A stretch of DNA of 64,000 bases from Eledone cirrhosa. Taxonomy: Eukaryota. Positions within the stretch are counted from its first letter, which is position 1. Each line of letters begins with the position of its first letter. The DNA lies in contig OZ024746.1 of NCBI GenBank assembly GCA_964016885.1, forward strand, positions 88,102,001-88,166,000. The letters are read 5' to 3'. Under the pieces are notes generated by a model that was given only the letters and a program-made list of their open reading frames with translations, ran no database searches and was not told the DNA's origin. The position numbers and the translations under genes are program-made. Below are positions 19,997-46,150 of the stretch, one piece after another.

Positions 19997-20254
19997 TATG
20001 GTTTTATAAACGTAGTCTCCATTCATTTAATATTATTGAATCTTTACTCCAGGTTAGAGTTGAGGGCTCTAAATCAATTATAAACATTTATGTTTGTCGT
20101 ACTTCCAACACATTAAATACAACTTCTACTTATTTATATATATATGAATTTATATATAGTGTATTTTGCAATACACTCTATGCTTAATTAAAAGTATTTC
20201 GAAGACCTTATGCTATTGTTTTAGAGTAGGGTCAGTCTCATTTACTTTAATTTG

Positions 20255-20339
20255 CAGCAAGCAGGGGAGATAAAGCTGACATAGCTCTGTTTCGCATTTT
20301 TTTATGCTTATCAAAGCTAACTACTCCTCCTGTTTGCTG
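20255..20339 (-). ncRNA. Extended type I hammerhead ribozyme with U3-A8 core variant
   Basis: Minus strand: CAGCAAACAGGAGGAGTAGTT-AGCT-TTGATAA-GCAT-A6-ATGC-GAA-ACA-GAGCTA-TGT-C^AGCT-TTATCTCCCCTGCTTGCTG. All three stems pair and the cleavage site is GUC. Confidence 0.8.
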
Positions 20340-20459
20340 AAAATCATGAATGTTTGATTCTTTATCTGAATGTGTCTATATGTATGTACACATATATCTT
20401 TTTCTATATTGCTAAATATTTTTATTTGTTATATATTATTTTTCTTACCCTTCTTTCCT

Positions 20460-21756
20460 TCTTTCCCGATACCTACCCGAAGTACAGCTGAACTTCTACA
20501 GGAAATCTTTCGTATCTTTGCTTCTTTCGTTTAAATATTCCACGACTCTCTACCACTTTTCTCCTACTACAATCTTCTTACACCACCTTCTTCTCACCCA
20601 TCTATGTTCCCCTCCCACCCTAATACCTTCAATATGCCCAATTCCAAATCATTTCTCCGCCAGCTCTATTCTACTCTCAAGCGCCCCCCTCTATATGCAT
20701 CCAATCCTCCCTGTATCTCTCCGACTTCCTCTTCACCAAAACATGATCCAACAGACACATCACCATTTTAAGTCGCTGTCTCCACCACCACCTTATTCCC
20801 CGCGGTTTCCGCATCAAGTTTCACCCCACTTCTTATTCTGCTCCCTCCACTGAGCCCTTCCTTACTACTCCTCTCTCCAGCTCATGCGGGCCACCATTCG
20901 ATCAACTCTAGCCGAAATCCGTTCTCTCGACCAAGATCTCCCCAAGGCCTATCTCGATCTCTCCTCCACTTGCCACCTTTACCTCGCTCAATCCCTTATC
21001 AAATTCATCCTTTACCTCAATCGCATACTTTTCAATTTCCTCACTTCCGTAAAAAAACACAAACTCGTCTCTCTCCGCTCCCCGCCTGCCGTCACCAATC
21101 TTACTCATATCACCTCCAACCCTAACCGCTCTATCCCGTCACCTACCACCCCCTTTTATCTCCCCATCACTGGATCTGCACACGCTTTTCCCAACCACCT
21201 TCACCCATCCGCATCCGCCTCTTTCACTCCCTCACGTCCCTGCACTGTAGTTACCATACCCTAGGACCTACCACTCTCCGAAGCTGAGCGCTCCCTCCTA
21301 GCCCGTGATTTGCATTTTGCACCAACCACATCTACCTGCGACGAGTTCCGTACACGTGTCGAGACTGAAAGGTTCTTCCGTCAATTAAAGTTGAAAGCTT
21401 TTTTTCACAACAGGCCACAGACGGATGACTTCACTCGTCTCACTCGCAGACAATCACACTGGACGCCGAGTTCTGGCCAATTCAGCACCCTCGACTCCTT
21501 CGTCGATACTTGCGGGCGTACTGTGAATCGGTTCCGTTTCCACCAGCATTCTCGTCGCTCTAACATAACGCGGACTGAGCTCTCCGCTCTTCGCAACTTT
21601 CGGCGACGAGATGACATTGTCATCAATCCAGCTGATAAAGGTGGCGCTGTGGTGGTTTGGGGCGTTGACCTCTATAGGACTGAGGCTCTCCGGCAGCTTC
21701 ACAATACCCTTTTTTACCACCTTTTATCCCCCAACCCCACTCTTGGCTACCAACAA
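20460..21756 (+). pseudogene. 5' half of a Neptune-like Penelope element
   Basis: LSEAERSLLA.DLHFAPT, FFRQLKLKAFF, WTP, NITRTELSAL, IVINPADKGGAVVVW, YRTEALRQL. Ends abruptly at NPTLGYQQ. Confidence 0.88.
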
Positions 21757-21886
21757 AGGAATCAAATAAATATTTTTTAAAAAGTCTCCAGTTGTAATTT
21801 TCGATTTCTTCATTTTACCTTATATTTTCACGCGTGTAGGGCATCTCATTTCTTTTCATTTTGTAAAAAAAAACTCCTTTTCTAAT
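21757..21886 (+). repeat. Fragment of hammerhead-bearing repeat family E
   Basis: Diverged reverse complement of 45778-45920. Confidence 0.7.
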
Positions 21887-30234: not shown

Positions 30235-32500
30235 AAACAGAAATAACAACAAGATCGGCGCAGTATATGGAAGGGATGTATTAAGTTAACGCTTGATATA
30301 GCAGGAAGAGGGTCTTAACATTTCTGACGCTAGTCCTTCATCAGAAGAAATAATGAGAAATAAGGTAGACTGAGGGGACGGGCGGGATGGAATAGGAAAA
30401 AATGTCTTTAGATAAAAATAACAGATCCATTCTCATGTTCACATCTCTTGCAAAACTGTTGGTGCTGGCGTTTTGTGTATGATTTATTTGTCATACACAA
30501 ACGAAATTTAAAAAAAAAACGTTTTGTAAGAAGAGCTATACTTGTACACGTGCGTAAGCATGTGTTAGTTTGTGTGTGTGTATGTGTGTATTACTATACG
30601 TCCTTATGAAGCTAAGAAGAAAAGTATGTGTCTATATATGTGAGTAAATGAGTGTGTCTGCATCTAGTACGACCTATGACCAAATGTATGTTAATATAAG
30701 GGTGTGTATGTGTGTATACTAAGCATTGAAGGGAAAAGTGGAGTGAGCATATATAGTCGTCATGTATTAGTTGTAAGAGAAGCTGCTAATGATCAAGAGA
30801 AAGCGATAGGAATCTAGGGTTGTGATAATGGACGTGGTATTATAGAAATTGGGGAGGTGAGTTGAGTCCAAGAAGGGATTAGGATCGGAGGCGGTGAATC
30901 AAACTTTGTTCAGTCCTGGTGCTCGAGACCTGTGATCCATGATGTAAAACGACGCAAAGGATTGAAACATGTAGGGAAGAATGACCAGGAGAACAGAAAT
31001 GACGGGCGACAGGAGTATCCAAACCGAGTAGTATGTCCCTCAAATGTTCGGCAAAACGGTCCGCCACATGGCGGCCCGTTTGTCCGATATATAAGAACCC
31101 GCAAAAGGAACACCAGATAGCATAGACAACGTGGGTGAATGTGCAGGTGAAGAAATGACTGATACGGAAAACCCGTTAGGGCCTGTAAGAGTGGTGAGGG
31201 TGGAAATCAAGGGACAAGTGTTGCAGCGGGAACGGGAACAAGGATGAGAGCCGGGTGGAGTCGGTGGAGAGGACGAAAAGGAATTGCAAACCAGGAGGTC
31301 GCGGGGGCTGTGAGCCCGCTTAAAAGCAGTAATGGGTTGGTTTGGAAAAAAGCGAGAAGTGACGGCGTCGGAAGAGAGGATACGGAAGGAACGGAGGATA
31401 CGTCGCCGGAGTGGTAGAGTGATGGGGTGGTAGGTGAGATGGAAAGGAACACAGGTCTTCGGAGGGCGGGGGTGAGGTGAGAGGGCTATGGTGCGGTCTG
31501 TTTCACGGGCGCGGGTGAGAGCAGCTTGGATCAGGGTGGGGGATATGCACGCTGGATGAAGCAGGAAGCTATGCGAAGCGAATGGGTTTCGAAATCGTCG
31601 TTCTCGCTACAGAGTCGATGAAGACAGAGGAATTGGGAATAGGGTATGGAGTGTTTGGTGTAGGTCGGATACGAGGAGGTGAAGACGAGGTAAGATTGGG
31701 AGTCTTTTGGTTTAATGAAGATGGAAGTAGAGAGGGTGTGGTGAGAGTGAATAATAGATATAGATATCTAGAAAAGCGACATAAGAATCGGAGACGGAGG
31801 CGGTAAAATTGAGAGCAGGATGGAAAGATTCGACACAAGAAAGAGGACAGTCGAGGTATTCTCGTGATAGAGAGGTGGTGCCGATACAGTCATCGATATA
31901 ACAACCCTATAGATCAGGAGTCGGTCCAGCGTACTGGGAGAAGATCTGGTCTTCGATGTAGCCAACAAACAAGTTTGCATAGTTTGGACCCATTCTGGTT
32001 CCCATCGCTAACCCAAAGACCTGTTGATGAAATTCACCCGAAATTGAAAATCCATTGAGGGGGAGAGCAAGCTCAGCCAGACGGAGAAGAGTGCTGGGGT
32101 AAGGGGTAGGAAGTAAATCTAAAAAATGTTGGAGAGCGCCGAGGCCGTCATCGTGAGGGATGACCGTATAGAGAGAGGTGATGTCCAGGTTAAAGAGTAG
32201 GCGGAAAGAGTAGGGGAAAGAGTAGGGGAAAGAGTTGAAGAGTCTAAGGGCATGATTTGTATCGTGTATGTGGGAGGGGAGATTGCCGACCAACGGAGCT
32301 GGGATGGTGTCTAAATATTCAGACATTATCTCATTTGGGCAGTTGCACGCAGAAACGATAGGACGACCAGGATTATTTTGTTTGTCTATTTTGGGGAGGA
32401 AGTAGATTGTTGATGTGCGAGGGGTGCGTACAATAAAGATGGTGGCTGCGGTGTGTAGGAGAGAGGAGGATGTGAGCTCGTGGATGGTGGAGGACACGAG
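30235..32500 (-). pseudogene. 3' half of a Neptune-like Penelope element (RT core, GIY-YIG, 3' pLTR)
   Basis: IYFLPKIDKQNNPGRPIVS, LDITSLYTVIPH, GLAMGTRMGPNYANLFVG, YIDD, HVVYAIWCSFCGFLYIGQT, RFAEH, PVARHF. Confidence 0.92.
30313..30347 (-). ncRNA. Degenerate minimal hammerhead in the Penelope 3' pLTR
   Basis: Minus strand CTT-CTGATGA-AG-GAC-TAGC-GTC-A-GAAA-TGTT-AAG, at the expected position downstream of the PLE ORF. Confidence 0.55.
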
Positions 32501-40910: not shown

Positions 40911-40948
<38 letters not shown>

Positions 40949-40988
40949 TGTATGCATAGTATATTTGGCAATATACCGTATGTTTAAT

Positions 40989-41043
<55 letters not shown>

Positions 41044-45784: not shown

Positions 45785-45916
45785 GTGAGGTTTTTTTTTA
45801 CAAAATGAAAAATAACCGAGGTGTCCTACACGAGTGGAAGTATAAAGAAAAAGGGATGAAATCGAAAATGCAACTGAAGTCTTATTTTTTTAAAAAATAT
45901 ATATATTTATTTGGTT

Positions 45917-45954
45917 CCTTTACCGGTTTCGCAGTTCTTCTGCTTTTCAAAAGG
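45917..45954 (-). ncRNA. Minimal type I hammerhead, U3-A8 variant, palindromic stem III (family E, 45778-45995)
   Basis: Minus strand CCTT-TTGAAAA-GCAG-AAGAA-CTGC-GAA-ACCGGT-A^AAGG. A decayed paralogue lies at ~46512-46548. Confidence 0.75.
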
Positions 45955-46150
45955 TGAGTTGAGATGGAGGGTCTGTGGTTTTTCTCACATCTTAATATAT
46001 ATATATTTTGGACTGAATTAGCCGTCGAAACGGCTTGAGCTCAGCCGTCGGCGGGGTCCTACTCGTTCCTATTACCCATTCTACTACCCTAAGTATTGAG
46101 TACTTTAGTGCGTTATGGTCCCCCTGGTTCCTTACCACATTTCCTTCGTT

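What the first reader, a model, noticed from the sequence alone, without database searches (positions are those of the whole stretch)
20255..20339. Complete extended hammerhead with a compensatory U3-A8 catalytic core
Seen (minus strand): 4-bp proximal stem I (AGCT/AGCT), an internal loop, a long distal stem, core UUGAUAA instead of CUGANGA, stem II GCAU/AUGC with an A6 loop, GAAA, a 3-bp stem III and a GUC site (plus-strand 20278-20280). Established: positions 3 and 8 form a Watson-Crick pair in the active fold, so C3-G8 to U3-A8 is compensatory; an internal loop in stem I typically docks on loop II. A strict CUGANGA search would miss this motif. Inference: a potentially active ribozyme, antisense to the candidate host gene and just upstream of a Penelope ORF.
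Basis: partly seen in the sequence, partly recalled or inferred. Interest (0 to 1): 0.75.

Follow-up and report, generated by a model that had tools for sequence, protein, structure and literature searches.

The report
Decayed retrozyme copy, swapped hammerhead core
This is one worn copy of a 319-base non-coding repeat, found over 2,000 times in this genome, whose hammerhead fold carries an already known U-A core swap; the family likely spreads with Penelope-type enzymes and is predicted to cut itself mainly as a pair, so this lone copy is likely switched off.

Summary
The hammerhead is real (z -5.1) but not a lone ribozyme. It lies in a 227-bp arm (20362-20136, minus) of a 319-bp repeat: 2,019 exact U3-A8 core hits and a ~41-unit array. 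All three stems covary. A sister clade keeps C3-G8 (537 hits; 87 of 100 listed), so the swap is compensatory. Natural U3-A8 is already published (PMC3088659, PMC4209133). Insertions look Penelope-made: 183 of 211 arms end at two fixed sites, one per arm in 61 of 63 pairs. The neighbouring Penelope ORF is a different element with its own C3-G8 ribozyme. No host gene was found. New and predicted only: loop III mimics the 3' strand of stem I and folds monomers and circles inactive, while dimers fold as double hammerheads. This copy has a stem III mutation and no partner, so it is predicted inactive. The scan noted similar U3-A8 retrozymes before on other DNA.

The parts
20136..20362 (-). One arm of the 319-bp retrozyme family (monomer positions 1-227; 5'-truncated; ends at the family's short 3' end)
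   Evidence: 94.3% to the L009 monomer over 227 bp; 3'-end classes
20255..20339 (-). Extended type I hammerhead
20329..20339 (-). Distal stem I, 5' strand (pairs with 20265-20255)
20315..20318 (-). Proximal stem I, 5' strand (pairs with 20277-20274)
   Evidence: pair 2.1-1.1 is U-A in 114 and C-G in 32 of 150 copies
20308..20314 (-). Core UUGAUAA; U3 = 20314, A8 = 20309
   Evidence: U3-A8 in 97 of 100 distinct rows
20294..20307 (-). Stem-loop II
   Evidence: two pairs changed on both sides in 24 of 100 rows, one subfamily event
20279..20290 (-). Stem-loop III region; a 12-nt palindrome in the family, broken here at 20282
20277..20278 (-). Predicted cleavage site, after C17 (20278)
   Evidence: hammerhead numbering; not tested
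20282..20319 (-). Predicted inactive 'decoy' helix: 20319-20313 paired with 20288-20282
   Evidence: folding prediction; covariation counts
20363..20467 (.). AT-rich spacer, not part of the neighbouring Penelope family's upstream sequence
20468..21756 (+). Unrelated neighbour: broken 5' part of a ~3.6-kb Penelope-like element, lacking its own pLTR ribozyme
   Evidence: weak RVT_1 (E 0.0013) and GIY-YIG (E 0.031) hits in sister copies, both below Pfam cut-off

Best explanation
The motif is the type I hammerhead of one decayed, 5'-truncated copy of a 319-bp non-LTR retrozyme family with a fixed U3-A8 core, likely pasted in by a Penelope-like reverse transcriptase, and this solo copy is predicted to be largely inactive. 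Steps: (1) tandem units are transcribed (inferred; no RNA data). (2) Two successive hammerheads pair through the 12-nt palindrome of helix III and exchange stem I strands to form a double hammerhead that cuts after GUC (predicted fold; cleavage inferred from conservation and from published U3-A8 activity). (3) The released 319-nt monomer likely circularises; in monomer and circle, loop III pairs with the 5' strand of stem I plus U3/U4 and blocks re-cleavage (predicted). (4) A Penelope-like RT/endonuclease primes at (TA)n targets from two internal start sites ~26 nt apart, one per strand, and reads through the cleavage site, giving two-armed head-to-head insertions (pattern shown; enzyme inferred, partner not identified). 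(5) The window copy has one arm, no tandem partner and a change at 20282 that breaks the palindrome and lengthens the decoy (sequence shown; effect predicted).
For: Repeat family: 82+1,362+244+331 = 2,019 exact hits of four mutually exclusive U3-A8 patterns, 0 in reversed controls; 319-bp period, 32% GC, ~41-unit array at G000:C2:208,895,065-208,908,284. Structure: 94.6% of cells paired, 64 cells changed on both sides against 17.7 shuffled, slid controls 28-47% paired. Sister clade: 537 hits, 87 of the 100 listed C3-G8 and 0 U3-A8 (counted by hand); 72-88% identity to the monomer in arms that span the hammerhead, same 3' ends; split from the U3-A8 clade with 100/100 support (42 rows). Insertion pattern: 183 of 211 arms end at ~227 or ~253; 61 of 63 fully classed head-to-head pairs (84 pairs in all) have one of each; 130 of 183 are followed by (AT)4+; 43 of 211 span two or more cleavage sites; 1 of 211 starts at the cleavage site. 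This matches the tail and inversion signature in PMC8557442 and the two RT start sites in PMC11167929. Folding: across 101 rows the median gap to the hammerhead fold is 3.9 kcal/mol as monomer and 0.2 per core as homodimer; window copy 6.4 and 3.9. In 15 natural adjacent pairs the median P(inter-unit helix III) is 0.79; in their circular monomers median P(decoy) 0.93, P(stem I) 0.003. Natural loop III gives P(decoy) > 0.5 in 7 of 7 subfamily representatives, against 4-25 of 256 possible palindromes.
Against: No cleavage or expression data. Nearest-neighbour folding ignores the loop I-loop II contacts, which could offset a 2-4 kcal/mol gap. The decoy is weak in the C3-G8 sister clade (median P 0.41, P(stem I) 0.66, 20 copies), which still spread, so the decoy is not needed for spreading. 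Decoy covariation rests on 2-3 subfamily events and is broken at one pair in one subfamily (A2.4 opposite C in 26 of 150 copies). In natural tandem pairs the median P(inter-unit stem I) is only 0.39, and 5 of 15 pairs show almost no inter-unit helix III. Arms read through the cleavage site, which fits uncut multimers as well as circles; ribozyme cleavage was dispensable for insertion in vitro in PMC11167929. In the Li et al. preprint 8 of 9 predicted retrozyme dimers did not cleave. The tree is midpoint-rooted, so the direction of the 3-8 swap is not shown. Loci were chosen by similarity or by core patterns, not at random.
Confidence: 0.75

Rival explanations
1. The family is a retrozyme, but each hammerhead cleaves well as a monomer; the decoy helix is a by-product of three AGCU-like tetramers and is overcome by tertiary contacts. 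The window copy could then still cleave if transcribed.
For: Helix III has 4 bp, longer than in dimer-only newt and axolotl motifs (PMC7229834); internal loop and hexaloop are conserved; the sister clade spreads with a weak decoy; coral and mussel monomers cleave.
Against: The palindrome is kept through several changes; the decoy is kept in 7 of 7 representatives, and the ancestral-type loop would lose it in the two C2.1 backgrounds (P 0.01-0.02 against 0.92-0.94 with their own loop); the window copy has a 6.4 kcal/mol gap.
Confidence: 0.3
2. The hammerhead no longer needs to cut: the fold is kept as a binding or folding platform for the Penelope protein, and uncut multimers are the templates.
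For: Arms do not start at the cleavage site (1 of 211; 0 in the 29 loci picked without the core); cleavage was dispensable in vitro (PMC11167929); earlier AI notes mention families with mismatched 3-8 pairs (not tested here).
Against: In this family the catalytic residues and the 3-8 pair are held across clades 12-28% apart, with the only core changes at the free position 7 and the paired 3-8 swap.
Confidence: 0.12
3. One reading: the ribozyme belongs to the adjacent Penelope element (an inverted pLTR) or regulates a host gene in antisense.
For: It lies 105 bp from the ORF-bearing element, head to head, as inverted pLTRs do (PMC8557442).
Against: 0 of 29 other copies of that element carry it within 1.5 kb; no match to the hammerhead part in 20 loci of 10 kb; that element's terminal repeats hold a different, sense C3-G8 motif; none of the 29 other repeat loci match the ORF; no host-gene Pfam hit.
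Confidence: 0.04

Closest known systems
Metazoan non-LTR retrozymes (PMC7229834; bioRxiv 10.64898/2026.07.22.740005)
   Same: ~300-bp low-GC non-coding unit, canonical type I hammerhead, dimers to long arrays plus dispersed copies, proposed Penelope mobilisation.
   Different: U3-A8 core (0 occurrences of 'U3-A8' in the main text of PMC7229834; supplements not opened); 4-bp helix III in a 12-nt palindrome; predicted decoy; RNA not shown here.
Natural U3-A8 hammerheads (PMC3088659; Schistosoma Cercyon minimal motifs, PMC4209133)
   Same: Same compensatory core pair, reported in nature and active in vitro.
   Different: The Cercyon motifs are minimal ribozymes of Penelope repeats; here the motif is a full extended type I with a C3-G8 sister clade of the same element in the same genome.
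Double hammerheads of newt/axolotl satellites and ASBVd (PMC6155905, PMC6466107, PMC7229834)
   Same: Palindromic loop III, tandem arrangement, activity predicted to need two units.
   Different: There the monomer is weak because helix III is 1-2 bp; here helix III is long enough and the monomer is predicted to be shut by a competing helix.
Penelope-like element insertions (PMC8557442, PMC11167929)
   Same: Inverted 5'-truncated arm, tail at one end only, two start sites, AT-rich targets.
   Different: Tail ~26-29 nt rather than 30-40; no ORF; autonomous partner not found.

Membership tests
Type I hammerhead ribozyme | Conserved core with a Watson-Crick 3-8 pair, GAAA and NUH | tested here: met
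   complete core in 81 of 101 rows
Type I hammerhead ribozyme | Three helices with open stem I, supported by covariation | tested here: met
Type I hammerhead ribozyme | Loop I-loop II tertiary contact | tested here: inconclusive
   Internal loop and hexaloop conserved and aligned to HH9; contact not testable
Type I hammerhead ribozyme | Self-cleavage | not testable with these tools
   Folding predicts the window copy is off
Rfam Hammerhead_HH9 (RF02275) | Score at or above 52 bits | tested here: not met
   20.1 bits; 22.6 for L203
Non-LTR retrozyme | 150-450-bp tandem unit with one type I hammerhead per unit | tested here: met
   319 bp; array and dimers
Non-LTR retrozyme | Non-coding, low GC, dispersed multi-copy | tested here: met
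   32% GC; no ORF of 170 aa or more assignable to the unit; 2,019 hits
Non-LTR retrozyme | Expressed as circular and linear monomer RNA | not testable with these tools
   No RNA data available to test it
pLTR of the adjacent Penelope-like element | Same sequence repeated at both ends of the ORF in sense orientation | tested here: not met
Penelope-mobilised non-autonomous element | Two fixed 3' ends, inverted arms, (TA)n targets | tested here: met
Penelope-mobilised non-autonomous element | Homology to an identified autonomous partner | tested here: inconclusive
   None seen in the fetched loci; no genome-wide test

The most novel reading that the evidence does not exclude
This retrozyme lineage evolved a built-in off switch: loop III is both the dimer-forming palindrome and a decoy copy of the stem I 3' strand, so single units and circles are shut and only tandem units cut. 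The C3-G8 to U3-A8 swap sits on the same branch as the loop III change that created the strong decoy, and would tune its depth: predicted gaps are 0.5-1.9 kcal/mol for the sister combination, 2.2-4.7 for this clade's, 4.8-7.4 for C3-G8 with the new loop and 0 for U3-A8 with the old loop. That would give a mechanistic reason for a natural catalytic-core swap.
Probability: 0.3. Interest if true: 0.65.

Novelty: new variant of a known kind. Interest (0 to 1): 0.4.

Why it matters
The core variant and the element class are known, and this copy is probably a fossil. The value is in the family. It offers paired natural clades (C3-G8 and U3-A8) of one element, so the cost of the swap can be measured in a matched background. 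It predicts a simple way for circular retrozyme RNA to avoid cutting itself, an open point for retrozymes with stable helix III. Its insertion ends tie retrozyme spread to Penelope two-site priming. It also shows that strict CUGANGA descriptors would miss over 2,000 motifs of this family in this genome.

Tried and rejected
Rfam scan: only HH9, below threshold. First searches for a C3-G8 sister found 0 and 2 double variants, one of them C3-G8; I first read this as 'no sister clade'. That was wrong: those patterns fixed stem II and position 7, and overturned it. 5' ends piling at the cleavage site as fossil evidence of cutting: not seen. Link to the adjacent ORF: rejected. CpG decay as the source of U3-A8: rejected, neither position is in a CpG context (sequence) and the pair is fixed. 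Host gene: Pfam on 11 ORFs and on 100 of 298 low-repeat ORFs of 45 aa or more found only a GIY-YIG piece and weak unrelated hits. Sequencing runs: no RNA holder listed. Covariance model R1 was built but not used, so divergent relatives were reached by patterns only and counts are lower bounds. Autonomous partner: not found in fetched loci. Literature on a loop III decoy: searches (listings only) and passages showed none; this is not exhaustive. The primary kinetics paper on 3-8 exchanges that I recalled was not held. Pol III boxes: one A-like match, no B box, so the promoter is unknown.

Full report
Observation. The motif is present as described on the minus strand at 20255-20339. It folds far better than shuffles (z -5.07), and a hammerhead descriptor finds it once in the window and never in 100 random windows. 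Rfam HH9 aligns to it at 20.1 bits, below the curated 52.

It is a repeat copy. The sequence 20362-20136 matches positions 1-227 of a 319-bp unit at 94%. Four non-overlapping exact patterns with the U3-A8 core give 82, 1,362, 244 and 331 genome hits, with none in reversed controls. One locus holds about 41 tandem units over 13.2 kb. The unit is 32% GC. This fits the non-LTR retrozymes of PMC7229834 (passages; parts 2 and 3 of 6) and of the Li et al. preprint (parts 1-3 of 5).

The structure is under selection in the family. I aligned 101 of 154 copies found, leaving out the array units and rows with truncated or chimeric 5' parts. 94.6% of cells pair, and 64 change on both sides against 17.7 in shuffles. 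These cells reflect a few subfamily events: two pairs in stem II, pair 2.1-1.1 in stem I (twice on the tree) and the fourth pair of stem III. U3-A8 stands in 97 of 100 distinct rows. A loose end in a run of another organism led to a sister clade: 537 hits, 87 of the 100 listed with C3-G8 and none with U3-A8. It aligns along the monomer and has the same 3' ends. The two clades separate with 100/100 support (one decayed C3-A8 copy lies inside the U3-A8 clade). So the swap is compensatory and happened once in this sample; its direction is not rooted.

The core variant is known. Perreault et al. report natural U3-A8 hammerheads and earlier in vitro activity (PMC3088659, passages). Cervera and de la Pena report about 1,300 in Schistosoma Penelope repeats (PMC4209133, part 1 of 4). 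Supplements of these papers were not opened and may list further cases.

The neighbours are unrelated. The element at 20468-21756 is a broken copy of a ~3.6-kb Penelope-like family (weak RT and GIY-YIG hits in sister copies). None of 29 other copies carries this repeat within 1.5 kb, and the family has its own sense C3-G8 minimal hammerhead in its terminal repeats, which the window copy lacks. I found no host gene, but short exons would escape that test.

How it spreads. Among 211 arms from loci L001-030, L064-080, L112-140 and L191-267 (arms under 60 nt or at a locus edge dropped), 88 end near monomer position 227 and 95 near 253; 130 of these 183 run into (AT)n. Of 84 head-to-head pairs, 63 have both ends classed, and 61 of them have one of each. 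This is the tail-at-one-end and inversion pattern of Penelope-like elements (PMC8557442, passages) and fits the two internal start sites shown for one such enzyme (PMC11167929, parts 1-2 of 4). I had seen the two end classes earlier; the per-pair tally followed an earlier AI note. 5' ends are scattered: 1 of 211 at the cleavage site, and 43 arms span two or more sites. The template was therefore a circle or an uncut multimer (inference). The partner enzyme was not identified.

How it likely cuts. In the family, A15.1 to U16.1 is a 12-nt palindrome, kept through several changes. Its loop also resembles the 3' strand of stem I. Folding predicts that in a single unit the 5' strand of stem I plus U3 and U4 pairs with loop III and displaces the GUC strand (median gap to the hammerhead fold 3.9 kcal/mol), whereas in a homodimer the double hammerhead is at or near the minimum (0.2 per core; 72% of 101 rows within 2, against 9% as monomers). 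Natural tandem pairs and their circles show the same trend, with exceptions. The decoy forms in 7 of 7 subfamily representatives, against 4-25 of 256 possible palindromes. It would also form first during transcription, since loop III precedes the 3' strand of stem I (inference). Against: the events are few, one subfamily has a mismatch in the decoy, the C3-G8 sister clade has only a weak decoy yet spread, and the energy model ignores tertiary contacts. Dimer-dependent cleavage itself is established for newt, axolotl and ASBVd motifs (PMC6155905 and PMC6466107, passages). I saw no report of a loop III decoy in the listings or the passages.

The window copy. It is a single arm with no tandem partner. 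The change at 20282 breaks the palindrome and extends the decoy: gap 6.4 kcal/mol as monomer and 3.9 per core as homodimer, P(decoy) 1.00 in context. It is most likely a fossil.

Verdict. A real hammerhead in a decayed copy of a retrozyme family with a known core variant. The family-level C3-G8/U3-A8 pair of clades and the predicted monomer-off, dimer-on switch are the parts worth testing. Interest 0.4. The organism was not identified by any search.

Noticed in passing
window 45880-46006 (-), core at 45950: A second, unrelated hammerhead repeat family with a U3-A8 core and a short palindromic stem III; 58 of 58 cores matched in fetched loci are U3-A8.
   Followed up: partly
window 21757-21885 (+): A piece of that second family starts within 1 nt of its predicted cleavage site and is fused in sense to the broken Penelope ORF; possibly a template switch from a cleaved RNA, but none of the 29 other loci starts there. 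The whole 20136-21885 stretch may be one mixed two-armed insertion.
   Followed up: partly
window 1969(-), 19938(+), 22865(-), 23317(+), 53027(+), 54527(-), 54593(+): Minimal hammerhead-like cores of other repeats, most with C3-G8, one C3-A8.
   Followed up: no
window 30882-31175 (-): GIY-YIG piece (E 0.00015), probably another Penelope-like element around 30.9-32.6 kb.
   Followed up: no
window 40936-40990 (-): 55-bp fragment of the same 319-bp family, ending at monomer position 227.
   Followed up: no
L012:2048-2980 (-): Three identical C3-G8 type I hammerheads at a 466-bp period, likely a young retrozyme.
   Followed up: no
G000:C2:208,895,065-208,908,284 (L062-L063): About 41-unit array of the window's subfamily, units 86-96% to the L009 monomer, many with damaged stems.
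   Followed up: partly
run X5 (organism B), laid on L009:1501-2040: Relatives of the family in a second organism, with a two-sided stem II change and a loose end of the C3 clade type.
   Followed up: partly
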